From: an uncultured Prevotellaceae bacterium | Lineage (GTDB): Bacteria > Bacteroidota > Bacteroidia > Bacteroidales > Bacteroidaceae | Reading direction: 5' to 3' | Length of the DNA: 64,000 nt | Assembly (NCBI GenBank): GCA_900313705.1 | Contig: OMSJ01000001.1 | Coordinates: 15,115 to 79,114 of the forward strand | In this document: piece after piece, positions 4,483-50,926 of the stretch | Position numbering within the stretch: the stretch's first letter is position 1 | Layout of the letters: each line of letters opens with the position of its first letter | The notes under the pieces: generated by a model | Databases searched by the model: none | The model's input: only the letters and a program-made list of their open reading frames with translations | What the model was told of the DNA's origin: nothing | Position numbers and translations under genes: made by a program

Positions 4483-5202
4483 ATGAAGATAGGCGACCAG
4501 GTGCGCTTCCTCTCCGAGGTGGGAGGAGGCAGAGTGAGTGGCTTCCAGGGGAAGAACATTGTCCTTGTCGAGGATGAGGACGGGTTTGAAATTCCGATGC
4601 TGGTGCAGGATGTCGTGGTTGTCGGCAACGAGGAATACGACAGCAGCAAGGTGAATACGATAGAGAGGGAAAAGCCTCTCTCCAAGACTCCCATCAAAGC
4701 GAGGGAACAAGAAGACCATGAAGAGAAGCCGATTACTTTCAAGCCAAAGCCTCTCGAAAGGCGTGAGGGGGAACGGCTCAACCTTTACCTGTCTTTCCTG
4801 CCAGACGACATCAAGGAAATCTCCAGCACGGGCTTCGAGTCGTACCTTGTGAACGACAGCAACTACTACATGCAGGTATCGTTGCTCAGCGCGGAAGGTG
4901 CGAGCTGGCATCTGCGCTTCTGCGGTGTCCTGGAGCCCAACAGCAAGCTCTTTGTAGAGGCTTTCGACCGCATGCAGGTCAACGACTTGGAACATCTATG
5001 CGTACAGGCCATCGCCTGGAAGCAGGACAAGCCGTTCCAACTGAAGCCTGCCATAACAACAGAACTTCGCCTCAACCTGACGAAGTTCTATAAACTGCAT
5101 GTCTTCCACCCAAATGAGTTCTTTGGTGAACCCAACTGGACGGAAGACATTATCCGTGACGACAAGCCTGTGCGCAGTGCCTGGTCGATACAGGAGTCTT
5201 AG
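4483..5202 (+). CDS. DUF2027-like conserved hypothetical protein
   Basis: 239 aa. The N-terminus MKIGDQVRFLSEVGGGRVSGFQGKNIVLVEDEDGFEIPML matches my recollection of Bacteroidales DUF2027 proteins. The TAG stop is the first unit of the GGTTAGA repeat array. Confidence 0.55.
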   Translation: MKIGDQVRFLSEVGGGRVSGFQGKNIVLVEDEDGFEIPMLVQDVVVVGNEEYDSSKVNTIEREKPLSKTPIKAREQEDHEEKPITFKPKPLERREGERLNLYLSFLPDDIKEISSTGFESYLVNDSNYYMQVSLLSAEGASWHLRFCGVLEPNSKLFVEAFDRMQVNDLEHLCVQAIAWKQDKPFQLKPAITTELRLNLTKFYKLHVFHPNEFFGEPNWTEDIIRDDKPVRSAWSIQES

Positions 5203-5346
5203 AGGTGGTTAGAGGTAAGAGGTTAGAGGTTAGGGGTTAGAGGTTAGAGGTTAGGGGTTAGAGGTTAGGGGTTAGAGGAATGTTTCGGGCTTTGATAACA
5301 GCCCCAAAGTATTCTCTAACCCCTAACCTCTTACCTCTTACCACTA
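5201..5346. repeat. Hairpin element with GGTTAGA/GGTTAGG heptamer-repeat arms, copy 1
   Basis: The left arm at 5201-5278 is about 11 tandem heptamers. The right arm at 5311-5346 is the complementary array. It starts on the TAG stop of the + gene and ends 4 nt from the stop of the - gene. Confidence 0.9.
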
Positions 5347-5349
5347 AAA

Positions 5350-10102: not shown

Positions 10103-10174
10103 AGTTTGATTGTTCATGTACTTGCAATTGCATGTTCATGTATATGCAATTGCAAGTACATGAACAATCAAACT
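10103..10174. repeat. 31-bp perfect inverted repeat with 10-nt loop
   Basis: AGTTTGATTGTTCATGTACTTGCAATTGCAT (10103-10133) pairs perfectly with ATGCAATTGCAAGTACATGAACAATCAAACT (10144-10174). No T-tract on either side. Confidence 0.9.
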
Positions 10175-23013: not shown

Positions 23014-23090
23014 GTACCTACTTCATCAATTAGGTGTACCTACTTCGTCAATTAGCTGTACCTACTTCGTCAATTAGCTGTACCTTCATT
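23014..23090. repeat. 22-bp tandem repeat x3.5 (GTACCTACTTCGTCAATTAGCT)
   Basis: Units at 23014, 23036 and 23058, with a partial unit at 23080. Sits between the DUF2723 promoter and the tRNA-Leu promoter. Confidence 0.9.
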
Positions 23091-27063: not shown

Positions 27064-27146
27064 AAGTACGTGTACTTGTTGCCATAAGTACGTGTACTTA
27101 TCCGAATAACTACGTGTACTTATCCCCATAAGTACGTGTACTTATC
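27064..27146 (+). repeat. 22-bp tandem repeat x4 (GTACGTGTACTTATCCnnATAA), locus A
   Basis: Unit starts at 27066, 27088, 27110 and 27132, an exact 22-bp phase. Confidence 0.9.
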
Positions 27147-33778: not shown

Positions 33779-33790
33779 GTTATTAATGTA

Positions 33791-33950
33791 TTAAGGATTA
33801 AGGATTAAAGATTAAGGATTAAGGTTTTGTTGATTTGGGAAGTAGGACAGCATTGCATCGGGCTTATTTCTTAATATATTACTTGGTATTTAGGAACCAA
33901 AGCAAACAGCTTTAATCATTAATCTTTAATCCTTAATCCTTAATCTCTAA
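33791..33950. repeat. Hairpin element with TTAAGGA heptamer arms
   Basis: Left arm 33791-33824 (TTAAGGATTAAGGATTAAAGATTAAGGATTAAGG). The complementary right arm at 33910-33950 overlaps the lolE-like stop codon. Confidence 0.85.
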
Positions 33951-35176
33951 TTCAATATCTTGCCTGCAAGATACTTCACCGGATACCATATTGCGAGCCA
34001 GCCGACGGCGAGGACGGTGACGAGGACAAGGAGGATGTCGGTGAGATAGACGCTGACGGGATAGGTCTCGATGATGAAGCTGCCTTCGCTGTCGCCCATC
34101 GTTACGATGCCATACTCTTGCTGAATCCAGCAGAGGACAGTGCCGAGCACCAGTCCGAGCAAGGCTCCGGCAAGGCTGATGATGTGGCCTTCCAAACGGA
34201 AGATGGTACAGATCTGCGAGTCGTTGGCACCAAGGCTGCGGAGTGTCTGGATGTCCTGTCGCTTGTCTATCATCAGCATCGAGAGGGAGCCGATGATGTT
34301 GAAGCAGGCAACGAGCAGGATGAAGGAGAGGAAGAAGTAGGAGATGAGCTTCTCGATGCGCATCACGCGGAAGACATCGTTCTGCTGTTCATAGCGATCC
34401 TCCACCTTGAAGCGCTCGCCGAGCTGTGCCTTTAGCTGTGCCTTCACCTTGTCTGCCTTGAGGCCGTCCTTGAGCTTCAGCTCGACGGACGACACTCTGC
34501 CCTGTCGGTCGAAGAGGCGCTGGGCAAAGCCGAGACTGGTGAGGATGTAGTTGGCATCGTACTTGGCCTGTCTGACCATGAAGACGACGCCCGGGCTTTG
34601 CAGCTCGTCGTGATTGAAGGAGGACAGTGGATTGCCGATGTTGACGCGCTCACCTGGCTTGGGAGCATAGATCTGTAGAGGGTCTTCGAAAAAGGCAGAG
34701 AGGCCCAGTTGCTGAGCCAGTTGTATGCCGAGGACGCCGTACTCCAGGATGTCGGCATGTAGGCAGAAGGAGCCGTCGCCATAGAGGATTTCCTCGATGC
34801 GTGTCTGTTTCGTGAAGTTGTCGGCAACGCCTTTGATGGTCACGACCTGCTGCCGTCCGTTCTGCACCACGAGTGCCTGTCCTTCGAGGACTGGCGTATA
34901 GACTTCCACGGCATCGCTCTTCTTGAGCTCCAGCAGGGCGGCGTCCTTGATGCTGACGGTCTGCCCGTCTGCCGGTGTGACGCGCAGTTCGGCATCGAAT
35001 GCCGTGAAGAGGTCGGCCACGAGGTCCTGGAAGCCGTTGAAGACGCTCAGCGTGACCACCATTGCCATCGTTGCCACAGCCACTCCGAGCACAGAGATGC
35101 CGCTGATGATGTTGATGGCATGGTGGCTCTTCTTGGCGAAGAGGTAGCGGCGAGCTATGAACAATTCATAATTCAT
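33947..35176 (-). CDS. FtsX/LolE-like ABC transporter permease
   Basis: 409 aa. N-terminus MNYELFIARRYLFAKK...INIISGISVLGVAV and a C-terminal FtsX 3-TM block. Confidence 0.85.
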   Translation of the reverse strand: MNYELFIARRYLFAKKSHHAINIISGISVLGVAVATMAMVVTLSVFNGFQDLVADLFTAFDAELRVTPADGQTVSIKDAALLELKKSDAVEVYTPVLEGQALVVQNGRQQVVTIKGVADNFTKQTRIEEILYGDGSFCLHADILEYGVLGIQLAQQLGLSAFFEDPLQIYAPKPGERVNIGNPLSSFNHDELQSPGVVFMVRQAKYDANYILTSLGFAQRLFDRQGRVSSVELKLKDGLKADKVKAQLKAQLGERFKVEDRYEQQNDVFRVMRIEKLISYFFLSFILLVACFNIIGSLSMLMIDKRQDIQTLRSLGANDSQICTIFRLEGHIISLAGALLGLVLGTVLCWIQQEYGIVTMGDSEGSFIIETYPVSVYLTDILLVLVTVLAVGWLAIWYPVKYLAGKILN

Positions 35177-35273
35177 GGTTGAAAATCAGAAATGTAGAAA
35201 TGTAGATAATAAGATAGGGGATATTCACATTTTCTTATTTTCACATTTTCTTATTTTCACATTTTCTTATTTT
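35177..35273. repeat. Imperfect hairpin; right arm is a 16-mer (CACATTTTCTTATTTT) x3
   Basis: Perfect 16-mers at 35226, 35242 and 35258. The left part GAAAATCAGAAATGTAGAAATGTAGATAATAAG is partially complementary. Confidence 0.85.
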
Positions 35274-35602
35274 CCTAAGAGCTCGTCGATGTGTTCGACG
35301 TAATCTAATGAGTCATCCACAAAGAACTTGAGCTCTGGGATGATGCGGAGCTGTTTACCTACGCGGGTGCCGAGCTCATAGCGCACCTGTCGCTGGTTCG
35401 TACTGATGTTCTTCACTATCTCCTCTGCCTTCTCGCTTGGGAAGACGCTGAGATAGACGCGGCAGACGCTCAGGTCGGGACTGATGCGGCAAGCGCTGAC
35501 GCTCACCAGCACGCCTCTCATCGCGCTTGTCTGCTTCTGGAAGATGTCGCTCAGCTCCTTCTGTATGAGGCGAGCTATCTTGTTTTGTCGGGTTGTTTCC
35601 AT
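35267..35602 (-). CDS. rbfA: Ribosome-binding factor A
   Basis: 111 aa. RQNKIARLIQKELSDIF and VSVSACRISPDLSVCRVYLSVF are typical of RbfA. The stop codon lies in the last 16-mer repeat unit. Confidence 0.9.
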   Translation of the reverse strand: METTRQNKIARLIQKELSDIFQKQTSAMRGVLVSVSACRISPDLSVCRVYLSVFPSEKAEEIVKNISTNQRQVRYELGTRVGKQLRIIPELKFFVDDSLDYVEHIDELLGK

Positions 35603-35625
35603 AACTTTTTTATTTAAGAAGATAG

Positions 35626-35760
35626 AAGAAGATAAATGGAGATAGAAGAAGATAGAAGACGTTAGTTTTTGCAGCCGATAAAGGTATCGTCCTCTATCTT
35701 CGCCGCTGGAAGCGGCATATCTTCCTCTAACTTCCTCTATCTACTTCATCTTTAATCTTC
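35626..35760. repeat. Imperfect hairpin with GATAGAAGAA-type arms
   Basis: AAGAAGATAGAAGAAGATAAATGGAGATAGAAGAAGATAGAAG on the left, CTTCCTCTAACTTCCTCTATCTACTTCATC on the right, with an inner GCCGCT-GGA-AGCGGC hairpin. Confidence 0.75.
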
Positions 35761-37885: not shown

Positions 37886-37968
37886 AAGTACGTGTACTTG
37901 TCGCCATAAGTACGTGTACTTATCCGACTAACTACGTGTACTTATTGCCATAAGTACGCGTACTTATC
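37886..37968 (+). repeat. 22-bp tandem repeat x4, locus B (about 90 percent identical to locus A by eye)
   Basis: Unit starts at 37888, 37910, 37932 and 37954. Same orientation and register as locus A. Confidence 0.9.
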
Positions 37969-45111: not shown

Positions 45112-46206
45112 ATGAGTAAAGACAAGAAAATCGTGCTGACCCTCGATGCGGGCGGCACCAACTTCGTTTTCTCCGCCATTTGCAACAATGAGGAGATTGT
45201 GGAACCTGTTCGCCTGAAGGCTGTCACCACCGACACCGAGGGCTGCCTGGCTACCCTTGTGCAAGGCTTCACCACCGTCAAGGAGAAACTCGGCACAGAA
45301 CCCGTTGCCATCAGCTTCGCCTTCCCCGGCCCTGCAGACTACGAGCGTGGCGTCATCGGCGACTTGCCCAACTTCCCCTCCTTCCGAGGCGGCGTAGCGC
45401 TCGGTCCGTACCTGGAGAGCGTCTTCAAGATTCCTGTGTATGTAAACAACGACGGCAACCTCTTTGCCTACGGCGAAGCTCTGGCAGGTGCCCTGCCCAG
45501 AGTGAACAAAGCTCTGGAGGAGGCTGGCTGCAAGCGTCGCTACAAGAACATGGTGGGCATCACCCTCGGCACAGGTTTCGGCTGCGGCGTGGTGATAGAC
45601 AAGGTGCTGCTGACGGGCGACAACGGTTGCGGCGGCGACGTCTGGTGTATGCGCAACGGCATGTATCCCTTCGTCATCGCAGAGGAAAGCGTCAGCATCC
45701 GTGCCGTCCGCAGGGTATATGCTGAGATGTCGCACGAAGAGATAGGCGACCTCACGCCCAAGGACATCGGCGACATTGCCAATGGCACACGTCCCGGCAA
45801 CCAGAAGGCCGCACAGGAGAGTTTCCGCCAGTTAGGTCAGGTCACGGCAGCCGCTCTGGTAAATGTGCTGAACATCGTCGATGGCATCGTCGTCATCGGT
45901 GGCGGTCTCTCGCACAACTCGAAGTGGATTCTGCCCGGCATGATGGAGGAGTTCGCACGTCCGGCAGGCACCTTCACCGGCAACCTGCTTCCCACGCTCC
46001 AGTCGGAGGTCTATAACTTCGAAGACGAAGAGCAGCGAGCAGCCTTCCTCGAGGACAAGGATGTCTATGTCGATGTGCCTCATTCGGACCAGAAGGTGCT
46101 CTACCAAGCCCAGCGCAAGGTGGCCGTTCTGGTGTCGGAACTGGGTGCCAGCAAAGCCATCAACCTGGGCGCCTACAACTTCGCACTTAATCAGTTGGGA
46201 CAATGA
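45112..46206 (+). CDS. ROK-family sugar kinase
   Basis: 364 aa. N-terminal ATP-binding LTLDAGGTNFVFSAI and ROK-like GFGCGVV. Confidence 0.85.
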   Translation: MSKDKKIVLTLDAGGTNFVFSAICNNEEIVEPVRLKAVTTDTEGCLATLVQGFTTVKEKLGTEPVAISFAFPGPADYERGVIGDLPNFPSFRGGVALGPYLESVFKIPVYVNNDGNLFAYGEALAGALPRVNKALEEAGCKRRYKNMVGITLGTGFGCGVVIDKVLLTGDNGCGGDVWCMRNGMYPFVIAEESVSIRAVRRVYAEMSHEEIGDLTPKDIGDIANGTRPGNQKAAQESFRQLGQVTAAALVNVLNIVDGIVVIGGGLSHNSKWILPGMMEEFARPAGTFTGNLLPTLQSEVYNFEDEEQRAAFLEDKDVYVDVPHSDQKVLYQAQRKVAVLVSELGASKAINLGAYNFALNQLGQ

Positions 46207-46306
46207 CCCCCCAACCCCCTTTAGGGGGAGGGAAAGAAACATTAGTATAACCCTTAACAAAAATCCCTCCGACCGTAATCTCCCCCCTAAAGGGGGTCGG
46301 GGGGTG
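46205..46306. repeat. Intergenic MITE-like element with hairpin-containing terminal inverted repeats
   Basis: The left end ACCCCCCAACCCCCTTTAGGGGGAGGGA is the inverted counterpart of the right end TCCCTCCGACCGTAATCTCCCCCCTAAAGGGGGTCGGGGGGT. It fills the ROK-MFS spacer. Confidence 0.8.
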
Positions 46307-48163: not shown

Positions 48164-48173
48164 TGTCTTACCA

Positions 48174-48297
48174 AATTAAGAATTAAGAGATAGGAATTAA
48201 GAATTTGCTATTGTTCAAAGATCTTTAATCTTTAATCCTTAATCTTTAATCCTTAATCTTTAATCCTTAATCTTTAATCTTTAATCTTTATTCCCTC
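48174..48297. repeat. AATTAAG / TAATCTT-TAATCCT heptamer arrays
   Basis: 48221-48297 is about 11 tandem heptamers of the same family as 33910-33950. A short AATTAAG array lies at 48174-48205. Confidence 0.85.
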
Positions 48298-48771
48298 TTT
48301 TATCTTCGTCCTGGCCCTGTGGAGATAGACCTTGACTTGTGTCTCGCTGATGTCGAGGGTCTGTGCTATCTCCTGATAGGTCTTGCCTTCGATGTCGCGC
48401 AGCAGCATGATGGTGCGTTGCAGTTCCGGCAAGCTATCCATGAGGCGGCGCACGAGAGAGAGTTGTTCGCGGGCTTCCATCGAAGACTGCACGTTGGGCA
48501 TTGCGGAATGCACATCGTCAACCTCGTCGAGGGACTTGGTGTTGCGGCCCGCCCGTTTCAGCACATCGAGCGCTCTGTTCCTGCAAATGGCGATTGCGAA
48601 GGCTTCGAGGCTGTTTATCTGCTCCCACTGGCTGCGCTGCTCCCACACTTTCAGGAGTGTGTCCTGCACCACATCTTCGGCCTCTGCCCTGTTCATCGTG
48701 ATGCGCAGAGCAAGGCGGAAGAGCCTGTCGCTCAGCGGCAAAACGGTGGTTCGGAAGCTGATGTTTTCCAT
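48274..48771 (-). CDS. ECF-subfamily RNA polymerase sigma-70 factor
   Basis: Region 2 (AEDVVQDTLLKVW) and region 4 (TYQEIAQTLDISETQVKVYLHRAR). Start set to MENISF (48771). The last 7 codons and the stop lie in the TAATCTT heptamer array. Confidence 0.9.
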   Translation of the reverse strand: MENISFRTTVLPLSDRLFRLALRITMNRAEAEDVVQDTLLKVWEQRSQWEQINSLEAFAIAICRNRALDVLKRAGRNTKSLDEVDDVHSAMPNVQSSMEAREQLSLVRRLMDSLPELQRTIMLLRDIEGKTYQEIAQTLDISETQVKVYLHRARTKIKEGIKIKD

Positions 48772-48815
48772 CTCTCTACTTATGAAGACGATTGAAGAGG
48801 GCAAAAGTTACACAT

Positions 48816-48927
48816 GAAAAGGGAAAAAGTTGAAAAGGTAAAAAATTGAAAAGGGGTTACGACATAAGATGATACAAGTTCTCCTCCTTTTTTTACCTTT
48901 TCAATTTTTTACCTTTTCACCTTTTAT
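48816..48927. repeat. Hairpin with 23-bp perfect stem of GAAAAGG-type repeats
   Basis: GAAAAGGTAAAAAATTGAAAAGG (48832-48854) pairs perfectly with 48896-48918. The right arm encodes the argB C-terminus. Confidence 0.9.
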
Positions 48928-49719: not shown

Positions 49720-49760
49720 CCTTATAACTTTATAATGTCCGACTTCACATGTCAACTTCG

Positions 49761-49826
49761 TTGCACCGTCGCGACAATTCAATTGCATCGTCGCGACGAT
49801 GCAATTGCAGCATCGCGACGCTGCAA
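49761..49826. repeat. Three abutting 22-bp dyads TTGCAnCG-TCGCGA-CGnTGCAA
   Basis: TCGCGA cores at 49769, 49791 and 49813. The middle unit is part of a perfect 24-bp palindrome, ATTGCATCGTCGCGACGATGCAAT (49782-49805). Sits between the rsgA stop and the argB start. Confidence 0.9.
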
Positions 49827-49839
49827 CGGATGTCTGCTG

Positions 49840-50802
49840 TCAGAAGGCCGCACGATACTTGCCTTCATCCTTGTCGTCGAGCATCGAGAGATAGCTCATA
49901 TAGCGGCTCTCGGCAATGCTCCCTTCGGCTACGGCCTGCAAGACGGCGCAGCCCGGTTCGTGGGTATGCGTGCAGTTGCCGAAGCGACAGCCGTCGGAGG
50001 TGCGGAAGATCTCGCGGAAGTAGTGGGACACCTCCTCGCGCTCCATGTCAAAAGTGCCGAAGCCTTTGATGCCCGGCGTGTCGATGAGCGCCCCGCCTTC
50101 CGGCAGGAAGAACATCTGCGAGAAAGTCGTGGTGTGCATCCCTGAGTCGTGTACCGCGCTGATTTCTGCGGTCTTGGCATCGGCATCGGGCACGAGCAGG
50201 TTGAGCAACGTGCTCTTCCCCACCCCGCTGTTGCCGCTGAGAAGGGTCGTCCGGCCTTGAAGTTCCTTTCGAAGTTCTTCGATGCCCGTCCTTTCCTCTG
50301 CAGAGCAAGTCAGGCAGGAATAGCCGATGCCACGATACAGGGCAACGATTTCCTCGAGTTGCTTCTGCTCCGCTTCATCATAGAGATCCGTCTTGTTGAA
50401 GACAATCAAGACAGGTACACGATACGCCTCGGCGCTTGCCAGGAAGCGGTCGATGAAGGTGGTGCTCGTCTCGGGGTGGGCAATGGTGACAATCAGCGCA
50501 GCCATATCAACGTTGGCTGCGATGATGTGATCCTCGATGTCCTCTATCAGAGCAGTCGGACATTGAACATTGACCATTGACCATTGACCATTGACCGTTG
50601 GGGCGTTGGGGCTTTGCGAGGGGGGCTGGCCGTTGGGCATCGGTTGGGGTATGATGCTGACCACATCTCCTACGGCCACGGGGCTGGTGCTACGGATGCC
50701 TTTGAGGCGAAAGTTGCCTTTCACCTTGCATTCGTAGAGCCGGCCGTCGTCCGCCTGAACGGTGTACCAACTGCCGGTGTTCCTTATGACGAGACCCTTC
50801 AT
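49840..50802 (-). CDS. rsgA: Ribosome small-subunit-dependent GTPase A
   Basis: 320 aa. N-terminal OB fold [16 protein letters not shown]...VAVGD, circularly permuted GTPase motifs ([17 protein letters not shown]) and a C-terminal zinc knuckle [17 protein letters not shown] repeat-derived insertion lies after the OB fold. Confidence 0.88.
50563..50597 (-). repeat. (TGGTCAA)x4 + TGTTCAA array inside rsgA
   Basis: The plus strand reads TTGAACA TTGACCA x3 TTGACCG, encoding [12 protein letters not shown]. Further GTTGGGG-type repeats follow up to about 50660. Confidence 0.9.
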
Positions 50803-50810
50803 GTAAATTA

Positions 50811-50918
50811 AGGTTTAAGAGGTTAGAGGTTAGAGGTTAGGGGTTAGAGGATACCTCTGGAAGCTGACATGCTGCCAAGACAATTCTCTAACCCCTAACC
50901 TCTTACCTCTTACCACTA
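50811..50918. repeat. Hairpin element with GGTTAGA heptamer arms, copy 2
   Basis: Left arm 50811-50850. The right arm at 50883-50918 is identical over 36 nt (ATTCTCTAACCCCTAACCTCTTACCTCTTACCACTA) to 5311-5346. A partial arm is also present at 58211-58230. Confidence 0.9.
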
Positions 50919-50926
50919 TCAGCCCA

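What the first reader, a model, noticed from the sequence alone, without database searches (positions are those of the whole stretch)
48174..48927. Intergenic hairpins whose arms are micro-tandem repeats; several genes end inside them
The recurrent architecture is a short tandem array, a spacer, then the complementary array. Different unit sequences appear at different loci: GGTTAGA, TTAAGGA, GAAAAGG, GATAGAAG and a 16-mer. The stop codon, and up to 7 C-terminal codons, come from the repeat arm in five genes. These are the ECF sigma factor (EGIKIKD-stop, 48274-48297), argB (KGEKVKN-stop, 48901-48927), rbfA (K-stop, 35267-35272), the lolE-like gene (stop at 33947) and pepC (stop at 35752). The + strand DUF2027-like gene also stops on the first unit at 5200. 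The elements sit 0-10 nt after stops, where terminators would be. They also separate co-directional genes such as frr and rsgA.
Basis: partly seen in the sequence, partly recalled or inferred. Interest (0 to 1): 0.6.

Follow-up and report, generated by a model that had tools for sequence, protein, structure and literature searches.

The report
Gene-less IVS-like hairpins with repeat arms

Summary
The window holds at least seven hairpins whose arms are short tandem arrays, and the genome holds at least 143.

Close congeners have nothing at the same junctions, where the genes abut or overlap. The tails of ArgB (GEKVKN), the ECF sigma factor (GIKIKD) and RbfA (GK) are therefore element-derived. 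The pepC stop is ancestral.

The elements do not look like intrinsic terminators. Only 4 of 80 have a T-run after the stem. Many sit between translationally coupled operon genes, and they also occur in divergent regions.

A RAYT gene exists, but it is flanked by a different REP family.

The decisive link is to the 23S_rRNA_IVP genes (PF05635/TIGR02436, Avd-like):
- All nine full-length copies in this genome, and 28 of 30 in five congeners, are bracketed by the same kind of inverted tandem arrays.
- 118 of 143 gene-less hairpins share an arm unit with such a cassette, and 115 of 117 share its polarity.
- Two families keep the cassette's subterminal sequences.

I read the hairpins as gene-less relatives of IVS-like cassettes. 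Their arms slip, and copy number varies within the species. How they move, and whether RNase III cleaves them, is not tested.

This scan reported the same hairpin-to-IVP link earlier in other phyla. Here it is tested independently in a Bacteroidota genome.

The parts
5200..5347 (.). Hairpin element between the convergent DUF2027 and NTP-transferase genes. Arms are GGTTAGN x10 (5207-5278) and CTCTAAC x5 (5314-5347). The loop has the family A core. The DUF2027 stop TAG (5200-5202) lies in the first degenerate unit.
   Evidence: (z -7.1). Congeners G016 and G011 have no element here. G007 has a different family here.
33779..33951 (-). Hairpin element between the lolE-like gene and the radical-SAM/SPASM gene. 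Arms are ATTAAGG and TTAATCC. The lolE stop TAG (33947-33949) lies in the first unit. The loop ends resemble the ends of the G000:C68 IVP cassette.
   Evidence: (z -6.6). The junction is empty (ATGA overlap) in G007 and G324. Arm copy number varies among strains.
35177..35275 (-). Weak hairpin between rbfA and the lolE-like gene. The 5' arm is three copies of the 16-mer AAAATAAGAAAATGTG (35224-35274, minus-strand reading). The opposite arm is AGAAATGT units (35188-35206). The rbfA tail GK-stop is element-derived.
   Evidence: z -2.7. There are 2 or 3 copies of the 16-mer among 10 same-species contigs. G007, G011 and G016 have a GTGA stop/start overlap instead. G324 and G017 carry other families here.
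35604..35751 (-). Hairpin between pepC and rbfA. Arms are built from GAAGATAGAG-like 10-mers, with an inner GC hairpin. The pepC stop at 35752 is ancestral; the element begins just after it.
   Evidence: (z -6.4). Empty in G007. Other families are present in G011, G016, G017 and G324.
48164..48297 (-). Array pair between the ECF sigma gene and the next gene. It has ten AGATTAA/GGATTAA units (48221-48294) and four to five AATTAAG units (48174-48205). It is a poor hairpin. The sigma tail GIKIKD-stop (48274-48294) is read from the array.
   Evidence: (z -1.8). In G007 the sigma ORF runs 19 nt into the next gene and there is no array.
48805..48927 (-). Hairpin between argB and the ECF sigma gene. 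Arms are GAAAAGGT / AAAAGTTG 8-mers (48815-48855 and 48889-48925). The ArgB tail GEKVKN-stop (48901-48921) is read from the arm.
   Evidence: (z -5.3). G007, G016 and G011 end at GTTIK or GTTIKER and have only a short plain hairpin. G324 shares this element, with longer arms and a different loop.
50803..50926 (-). Hairpin between frr and rsgA. Arms are GGTTAGN, and the loop has the family A core. The frr stop TAG lies in the first degenerate unit.
   Evidence: (z -6.8). In G007 and G011 the frr TAA abuts the rsgA ATG. G017 (GGATTAG arms) and G324 (GTGAAGA arms) carry other families at this junction.

Best explanation
The hairpins are gene-less members of a class of small IVS-like cassettes. 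They are either internal-deletion derivatives of those cassettes or close relatives.

**The full cassette.** It consists of an array of 4-10 tandem 7-9-nt units, about 20-100 nt of subterminal sequence, a gene of about 120 codons for a four-helix-bundle '23S rRNA intervening-sequence protein' (PF05635/TIGR02436, homologous to DGR Avd), more subterminal sequence, and the complementary array. Here the cassettes lie between ordinary protein genes, not in rRNA. They are co-oriented with their neighbours.

**Shown**
- Cassettes and gene-less hairpins share arm units, arm polarity and, for two families, subterminal ends.
- The hairpins are absent from the same junctions in congeners. One family is patchily distributed in the genus.
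- Arm copy number is polymorphic within the species, so the arms slip like microsatellites.
- The inward-reading arm usually carries a stop triplet. Because the period is not a multiple of 3, that triplet closes all three frames within 21-24 nt. An upstream gene therefore ends inside the arm with a tail of at most about 7 codons.

**Inferred**
- The elements are selfish and persist at junctions because insertions there are tolerated.
- By analogy with rRNA IVSs, the long perfect stems are RNase III substrates in the transcript.

**Unknown**
- How they move. No transposase is associated with them.
For: **Link to IVP cassettes**
- G000 has 13 PF05635 hits, nine of them full length.
- All nine are bracketed by inverted tandem arrays and are co-oriented with both neighbouring ORFs.
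- 28 of 30 IVP genes in congeners G242, G285, G324, G017 and G007 are bracketed in the same way.
- 118 of 143 gene-less hairpins have an arm unit within one mismatch of a cassette arm unit. The shuffled-unit null is 49.5 +/- 4.8, maximum 63.
- 115 of 117 informative hairpins have the cassette's polarity.
- Loops of GTGAAGA-armed hairpins match the subterminal ends of the C84 cassette (GAAGAATCAAAGTAAC ... GGTAACTCTGATTCTTCAC). Scores are 16-24 against a null 99th percentile of 15.
- The family A core (AGAGAATAC..TTTGG ... ACAATYCTCTAACC) equals the ends of the GGTTAGN-armed cassette G324:C8:46810.
- The proteins reach TIGR02436 'four helix bundle protein' at E 2e-32 to 6e-26. One has a weak Avd hit.

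**Evidence of insertion and turnover**
- Six window junctions are empty in G007 and G011.
- The family A covariance model hits 17 of 121 genus genomes. Five have 40 or more, or at least 17 copies, while close relatives have 0-1.
- Some IVP proteins are identical between species whose ArgB is about 81% identical.

**Slippage**
- The 16-mer has 2 or 3 copies, and one arm gains 7 heptamers, among 10 same-species contigs.

**Stop logic**
- The inward-reading unit contains a stop in 92 of 122 elements; the outward-reading unit in 51 of 122.
- 29 genes end inside an arm, at most 5.3 codons past its boundary.

**Published background on IVSs (PMC4990558)**
- IVSs are stem-loop selfish elements with terminal inverted repeats.
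- Some carry an S23p ORF, and they are excised by RNase III.
- G000 encodes RNase III.
Against: - None of the window's own hairpins contains an IVP gene, and no IVP gene lies in the window.
- For several window families (the 10-mer element at 35604-35751 and the 8-mer element at 48805-48927) I found no matching parent cassette.
- The direction of descent is not shown. IVP genes could instead have entered pre-existing hairpins.
- No target-site duplication or defined ends were seen at six filled-versus-empty sites.
- Copies within a family are fairly diverged in the loop (mean column identity 66%), so recent copy-and-paste is not demonstrated.
- RNAalifold finds no conserved structure inside the core.
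- All genomes are incomplete MAGs.
Confidence: 0.68

Rival explanations
1. The hairpins are host-selected RNA elements: intrinsic or bidirectional terminators, or mRNA stabilisers or insulators. Their arms happen to be repetitive.
For: - They form strong hairpins (z -5 to -7).
- 50 of 80 gene 3' ends overlap an arm or lie within 10 nt of one.
- Family A cores are co-oriented with flanking genes in 12 of 14 tandem contexts (p = 0.013).
- Y-rich, often U-rich arms lie 3' on both strands.
Against: - There is no U-tract: 4 of 80 have a T4 run. No terminator-like hit overlaps them.
- They are not conserved at orthologous junctions in congeners, which have overlapping stop/start codons there.
- They occur in divergent regions at the baseline rate.
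- Different families occupy the same junction in different species.
- Co-orientation is equally explained by descent from co-oriented cassettes.
Confidence: 0.1
2. They are REP/REPIN-type elements spread by a RAYT or an IS200/IS605 TnpA acting on single-stranded hairpins.
For: - One Y1_Tnp gene (151 aa, E 1e-20) lies in G000:C119 between housekeeping genes, with classic RAYT flanks.
- The loops of one hairpin superfamily carry GGGCGTAGCC, which contains a GTAG.
Against: - The RAYT is flanked by a different palindrome (GCCCTGAAAGGGC / CAGGGCATCGCCCTG, 33 and 16 copies), not by tandem-armed hairpins.
- No homologue was found in G242, G285 or G324, each with 40 or more family A copies. These MAGs are incomplete.
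- One enzyme would be unlikely to recognise dozens of unrelated arm units.
Confidence: 0.05
3. The arrays arise locally. Replication slippage expands a short word at the gene end, and intrastrand template switching (quasipalindrome correction) copies it to the other arm. IVP genes are later passengers in some loops.
For: - Arm copy number changes within the species, independently in each arm.
- Solo arrays exist, for example TCTTCAC x4 at pepC|rbfA in G011 and CTAATCC at the sigma junction in G324.
- Empty sites in congeners sometimes resemble the arm unit: pepC end GAAGAAGA, lolE end AAGGATTAG. By longest common substring the combined p is about 0.02; by window match it is about 0.17. The metric was chosen post hoc.
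- Orthologous elements have arms TTGCCCC versus TAACCCC around a similar loop.
Against: - The same units recur at dozens of loci, with fixed polarity within each family (16/16, 15/15, 10/10).
- Subterminal and loop sequences are shared between loci and between species. Independent local origin does not predict this.
- 37 of 39 IVP genes have such arms, too regular for occasional passengers.
Confidence: 0.12

Closest known systems
23S rRNA intervening sequences (IVS) that carry an S23p ORF (Coxiella burnetii, Leptospira; PMC4990558)
   Same: - A long stem is made by terminal inverted repeats around a small ORF of the same protein family (PF05635/TIGR02436).
- Regarded as selfish, with sporadic distribution and suspected horizontal transfer.
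- The stem is an RNase III substrate in the published cases.
   Different: - The elements here lie between protein-coding genes, not in helix 25/45 of 23S rRNA.
- The stems are tandem arrays of 7-9-nt units and are length-polymorphic.
- Most copies have lost the ORF or never had it.
- There are dozens to hundreds of copies per genome.
- RNase III cleavage was not tested here.
Paired convergent GGGAATC heptamer arrays of Xanthomonas campestris / X. axonopodis (Rehm et al. 2015, PMC4692102)
   Same: - Intergenic tandem heptamer arrays occur as inverted pairs able to form stem-loops. There are 70-75 pairs per genome, and array length differs between species.
   Different: - Xanthomonas has a single G-rich unit, studied as a G-quadruplex former. 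No protein gene or conserved loop module was reported.
- Here there are at least 40 unit families, most not G-rich, with shared loop and subterminal modules and a link to IVP genes.
Heptanucleotide repeats: cyanobacterial STRR, TAACTGA repeats (PMC4679880), and the long SSRs of Mrazek et al. 2007 (as summarised in PMC4679880)
   Same: - Abundant intergenic tandem 7-mers of unknown origin.
- Period 7 is the commonest long-SSR class.
- Slippage has been proposed as the mechanism.
   Different: - Those are described mainly as direct arrays. TAACTGA has a single inverted case.
- The inverted-arm architecture, the conserved cores and the enclosed gene are not part of those descriptions.
REP/REPIN with RAYT, and MITEs (PMC3116915)
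   Same: - Short non-autonomous hairpin repeats at gene junctions.
- Lineage-specific copy numbers.
- A gene-carrying relative shares their ends.
   Different: - The gene-carrying relative encodes a four-helix-bundle Avd-like protein, not a transposase.
- No target-site duplication was seen.
- The genome's RAYT is tied to another repeat family.

Membership tests
IVS-type element (stem-loop with terminal inverted repeats, with or without an S23p/PF05635 ORF) | Long terminal inverted repeats that fold into a stable stem | tested here: met
   Five of seven window elements have z between -5.3 and -7.1. 143 inverted array pairs were found genome-wide.
IVS-type element (stem-loop with terminal inverted repeats, with or without an S23p/PF05635 ORF) | PF05635 ORF in the loop | tested here: not met
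   - The window's hairpins have loops of 8-90 nt with no ORF.
- The feature is met by the related cassettes elsewhere: 9 of 9 in G000 and 28 of 30 in congeners.
- The window elements are therefore filed as gene-less relatives, not as full IVSs.
IVS-type element (stem-loop with terminal inverted repeats, with or without an S23p/PF05635 ORF) | Inserted in helix 25 or 45 of the 23S rRNA gene | tested here: not met
   All lie between or inside protein-coding genes. Whether an rRNA copy also exists was not examined.
IVS-type element (stem-loop with terminal inverted repeats, with or without an S23p/PF05635 ORF) | Excised from the transcript by RNase III | not testable with these tools
   An RNase III gene is present.
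REP/REPIN-RAYT system | A RAYT gene flanked by the same repeat in inverted orientation | tested here: not met
   The RAYT at G000:C119 is flanked by GCCCTGAAAGGGC-type palindromes, not by tandem-armed hairpins.
MITE | Terminal inverted repeats plus a target-site duplication | tested here: inconclusive
   The arms are inverted. No duplication was visible at six filled-versus-empty junctions, but the flanks are about 20% diverged, so boundaries are fuzzy.
MITE | A parent autonomous element that shares the ends and encodes a transposase | tested here: not met
   The elements that share the ends encode IVP proteins, not a recognisable transposase.
Intrinsic (rho-independent) terminator | A stem directly followed by a U-tract in the transcript sense | tested here: not met
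   4 of 80 have a T4 run, and 10 of 80 have at least 5 T in 8. No scan hits fall on the elements.
Heptanucleotide long SSR / STRR-like repeats | Tandem arrays of 7-nt units, over-represented and mostly intergenic | tested here: met
   There are 866 non-redundant period-7 arrays, against 37 TRF rows in a shuffled genome. 454 are intergenic, although only about 14% of the genome is intergenic.

The most novel reading that the evidence does not exclude
The IVP/Avd-like protein is the specificity factor of an undescribed kind of mobile cassette.
- Each paralogue may recognise its own tandem unit, possibly one unit per subunit of the published pentameric ring. Cassette arms cluster at about 4-5 units.
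- It would promote copying or homing of the hairpin to gene ends, perhaps through an RNA or self-primed intermediate as Avd does in DGRs.
- The gene-less hairpins would be mobilised in trans.
- This would explain decades-old heptamer repeats (STRR, Xanthomonas) across phyla.
Probability: 0.2. Interest if true: 0.85.

Novelty: new variant of a known kind. Interest (0 to 1): 0.62.

Why it matters
**An old puzzle gets a testable partner.** Tandem heptamer repeats in bacterial intergenic DNA have been reported since about 1990 without an origin. 23S rRNA IVS proteins have no known function. Tying the two together gives both a testable partner. Full-text searches for PF05635, TIGR02436 and related names returned four papers; the one I opened (PMC10053308) concerns Avd homology, not repeat arms.

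**Annotation.**
- The arms rewrite C-termini of housekeeping proteins (ArgB, RbfA, an ECF sigma factor, DUF2027).
- They split translationally coupled operon genes.
- They create strain-level length polymorphism usable as markers.

**Rumen metagenomics.** They are likely breakpoints for assembly, given the many short contigs.

Tried and rejected
- **Strict arm-loop-arm pattern for GGTTAGR arms.** It hit only G000 among 201 family genomes. The pattern was too strict; the covariance model later found 17 of 121 genus genomes.
- **RAYT link.** Rejected.
- **Transposase-carrying parent.** I searched for same-unit inverted arrays 300-4000 nt apart. This gave no transposase, but in hindsight it listed six IVP cassettes.
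- **Conserved RNA structure in the family A core.** RNAalifold keeps only arm pairs and finds no compensatory changes.
- **Rfam at gathering threshold.** Only a tRNA in the window.
- **Microhomology between empty sites and arm units.** Suggestive at 3-4 of 6 junctions, but metric-dependent. Left as a lead.
- **Treating G324 as a very close relative.** It shows 93% identity at recA, but only 82-85% over the window.
- **Elhai et al. 2008** (small dispersed repeats in Nostoc) is not held in the library.

Full report
**1. What is in the sequence**

The window has many short-period tandem arrays (66 TRF rows). Several are followed within 8-90 nt by the complementary array. The clearest pairs are:
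- 5207-5347 (GGTTAGN)
- 33790-33951 (ATTAAGG)
- 35616-35739 (10-mer)
- 48815-48925 (8/16-mer)
- 50818-50918 (GGTTAGN)

As RNA in the sense of the neighbouring genes they fold far better than dinucleotide shuffles, with z from -5.3 to -7.1. Two elements are weak hairpins: 35177-35280 (z -2.7) and 48164-48300 (z -1.8), which is the first element named in the finding.

**2. It is a genome-wide feature, not chance**

The window is G000:C57:15115-79114 of a 2.83-Mb, 185-contig, about 80% complete MAG. Earlier notes of this scan call it a rumen Prevotellaceae genome. The contigs that carry an identical RbfA come from rumen metagenome projects.

| Period | TRF rows, real genome | TRF rows, Markov-shuffled genome |
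|---|---|---|
| 7 | 900 | 37 |
| 8 | 442 | 65 |
| 22 | 283 | 1 |

- Among adjacent same-period array pairs, 152 are inverted and 43 direct.
- After removing overlaps there are 143 paired elements with a median length of 111 nt.
- Units recur. There are about 50 unit families among the pairs, the largest being GGTTAGN, GTGAAGA, GGGGCAA/GGAGCAA, AGTTAAAGA and GAAAAGGT.
- Within a family the order 'unit array ... complementary array' is never reversed (16/16, 15/15, 10/10, 7/7 ...).
- In 119 of 143 elements the purine-rich array is the 5' arm.

**3. Comparison with relatives**

In four congeners (ArgB 81-86% identical) the same junctions are nearly empty.

| Junction | Congeners | G000 |
|---|---|---|
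| rbfA / lolE | overlap by GTGA | 100-200 nt element |
| lolE / radical-SAM gene | overlap by ATGA | 100-200 nt element |
| frr / rsgA | frr TAA abuts the rsgA ATG | 100-200 nt element |
| sigma / next gene | sigma ORF runs 19 nt into the next gene | 100-200 nt element |

The protein tails follow from this:
- ArgB ends GTTIK (or GTTIKER) in relatives and GTTIKGEKVKN here.
- Sigma ends ...KIKEWITNT in G007 and ...KIKEGIKIKD here.
- RbfA ends ...LLKQ in relatives and ...LLGK here.
- The DUF2027 protein has lost the ancestral ...VFADVEQVKEALNS tail.
- The pepC stop is the ancestral one.

Other species carry other families at the same junctions:
- frr|rsgA has GGTTAGN arms in G000, GGATTAG in G017 and GTGAAGA in G324, and is empty in G007, G011 and G016.
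- rbfA|lolE, pepC|rbfA and the DUF2027 junction behave in the same way.
- Only the argB|sigma element is shared, between G000 and G324. There it has longer arms and a different loop.

Within the species the elements are fixed in place, but the arm length varies. Ten independent contigs encoding the identical RbfA have 2 or 3 copies of the 16-mer. One has seven extra heptamers in one arm, and one has both arms rearranged.

**4. Why genes end inside them**

The inward-reading unit contains TAA, TAG or TGA in 92 of 122 elements whose period is not a multiple of three. The outward-reading unit does so in 51 of 122. With a 7- or 8-nt period, one stop triplet per unit closes every frame within three units.

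Genome-wide, 29 genes end inside an arm, at most 5.3 codons past its boundary. In total 50 of 80 gene 3' ends overlap an arm or lie within 10 nt of one. Purine-rich arms that contain a T almost automatically carry stops (T-R-R), so the purine polarity and the stop polarity are one feature. I cannot say which is selected.

**5. They do not look like terminators or RAYT-borne REPs**

Terminator features are missing:
- Only 4 of 80 transcript-sense tails have a run of four T.
- The terminator scan finds no more sites than shuffles do, and none falls on the elements.
- The elements occur in tandem, divergent and convergent regions (60/15/10) roughly in proportion to the junction types (1355/289/341).

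RAYT findings:
- A RAYT-like Y1 transposase is present.
- It is flanked by perfect inverted copies of a different palindrome, which has 33 copies in the genome.
- A homologue was found in two of five congeners rich in one hairpin family, and in none of five others.

**6. The link to IVP cassettes**

Loops are not random. Families share asymmetric modules next to the arms.

Notes from earlier follow-ups of this scan, made in other phyla, suggested looking for '23S rRNA intervening-sequence protein' genes. I tested that here.

- G000 has 13 PF05635 hits, nine of them full length.
- Every one of the nine sits between an array and its complementary array.
- The arm units are AGATTAA, AGGAGCA, ATTGAAA, TTCACAA, AATTAAG, AAAAATT, AGAAAATA, AGTGAAG and ATTTAAGG. 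These are the unit types of the gene-less hairpins.
- All nine are co-oriented with both neighbours. The upstream gene's stop lies in or beside the first unit, and the next ATG lies just after the last unit.
- In five congeners, 28 of 30 IVP genes are bracketed in the same way.
- Of the 143 gene-less hairpins, 71 have an arm unit identical to a cassette arm unit and 118 are within one mismatch. The shuffled-unit null is 49.5 +/- 4.8.
- 115 of 117 have the cassette's polarity.

Subterminal sequence agrees as well:
- All GTGAAGA-armed hairpins match the two ends of the C84 cassette best. Scores are 16-24 against a null 99th percentile of 15.
- The family A core is the two ends of a GGTTAGN-armed cassette in G324.
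- The GGGCGTAGCC module of a third superfamily lies between the IVP stop and the 3' arm of the C169 cassette.

The proteins are TIGR02436 four-helix-bundle proteins, and one has a weak Avd hit. PF05635 is regarded as Avd-like (PMC10053308).

The nine paralogues are 11-50% identical. Protein distance correlates with arm-unit distance over 35 cassettes (Mantel r = 0.44, p = 0.0002). Relatedness of the cassettes inflates this correlation.

Some IVPs are identical over the matched region between species whose ArgB differs by about 19%. This points to recent transfer or strong constraint.

At the junction upstream of a recA-like gene, the flanks of G000 and G324 are far more alike than the IVP genes they bracket. 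I estimated about 93% against about 60% by eye from the alignment. The two cassettes also have different arms, which suggests replacement.

**7. Reading**

Published IVSs are stem-loop selfish elements in 23S rRNA. Some carry this ORF, and they are excised by RNase III (PMC4990558).

The elements here have the same anatomy, but they lie between protein genes and their stems are built from microsatellite-like units. I therefore read the window's hairpins as gene-less members of this class.

They are tolerated at junctions for two reasons:
- They close incoming reading frames quickly.
- Possibly, RNase III removes or cuts them in the transcript. G000 has rnc.

The mobility mechanism is unknown. 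One weak reverse-transcriptase ORF exists and was not followed up.

The patchy genus distribution of family A fits lineage-specific bursts. It hits 17 of 121 genomes, with at least 40 copies in four and 0-1 in the nearest relatives.

**8. Limits**

- All genomes are MAGs.
- Gene calls are my own crude ORF calls.
- TRF thresholds miss short arms.
- The direction of descent (deletion derivative versus gene capture) is not resolved.
- No transcript evidence could be obtained.

The closest published precedent for the bare architecture is the paired GGGAATC arrays of Xanthomonas (PMC4692102).

Noticed in passing
window 49761-49826, 27064-27146, 37886-37968, 10111-10166, 23014-23085: A second abundant repeat class consists of tandem 22-bp units, each internally palindromic. 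There are 246 non-redundant arrays genome-wide, against 1 row in a shuffled genome. The array at 49721-49855 is an insertion between rsgA and argB relative to congeners, which have about 20 nt there.
   Followed up: partly
G000:C119:3501-3956 (L052 1483-1938): A RAYT-like Y1 transposase gene lies between housekeeping genes. It is flanked by perfect inverted GCCCTGAAAGGGC palindromes, which have 33 copies in the genome. This appears to be a separate REP/RAYT system.
   Followed up: partly
window 46206-46305: A CCCCCCAACCCCCTTTAGGGGG...CCCCCTAAAGGGGGTCGGGGGG hairpin of another repeat family fills a junction that is 6-8 nt long in G007 and G016 and an overlap in G011.
   Followed up: no
window 50561-50650: CATTGAC and CGTTGGGG arrays form a 75-nt in-frame insertion inside rsgA relative to four congeners.
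   Followed up: partly
G000:C68:7139-7453 vs G017:C46:3850-4164; G000:C169:31432-31743 vs G285:C41:32890-33201: IVP proteins are identical over the Pfam-matched region between species whose ArgB is only about 81% identical. This suggests recent horizontal movement of the cassettes.
   Followed up: partly
G000:C164:732-1230 vs G324:C8 (L101): The same junction upstream of a recA-like gene holds IVP cassettes with different arms (GGGGCAA versus GGTTAGN). The genes are about 60% identical by eye while the flanks are about 93% identical. A neighbouring gene-less hairpin has arms TTGCCCC versus TAACCCC around a similar loop.
   Followed up: partly
window junctions 35176-35278, 35604-35751, 50803-50926, 5203-5347: The same gene junctions are occupied by different hairpin families in G000, G324, G017 and G007, and are empty in G011 and G016. 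Whether this reflects junction hotspots or replacement of resident elements is unexplained.
   Followed up: partly
G000:C62:29216-29944: The only reverse-transcriptase-like ORF in the assembly (RVT_1, 38 bits, 507-aa frame). This may matter because IVP proteins are Avd-like.
   Followed up: no
window 4483-5202: The DUF2027 protein matches only profile positions 1-135 of 156. Its last approximately 7 residues differ from G016 and G011, so its C-terminus was replaced at the repeat-filled convergent junction.
   Followed up: partly
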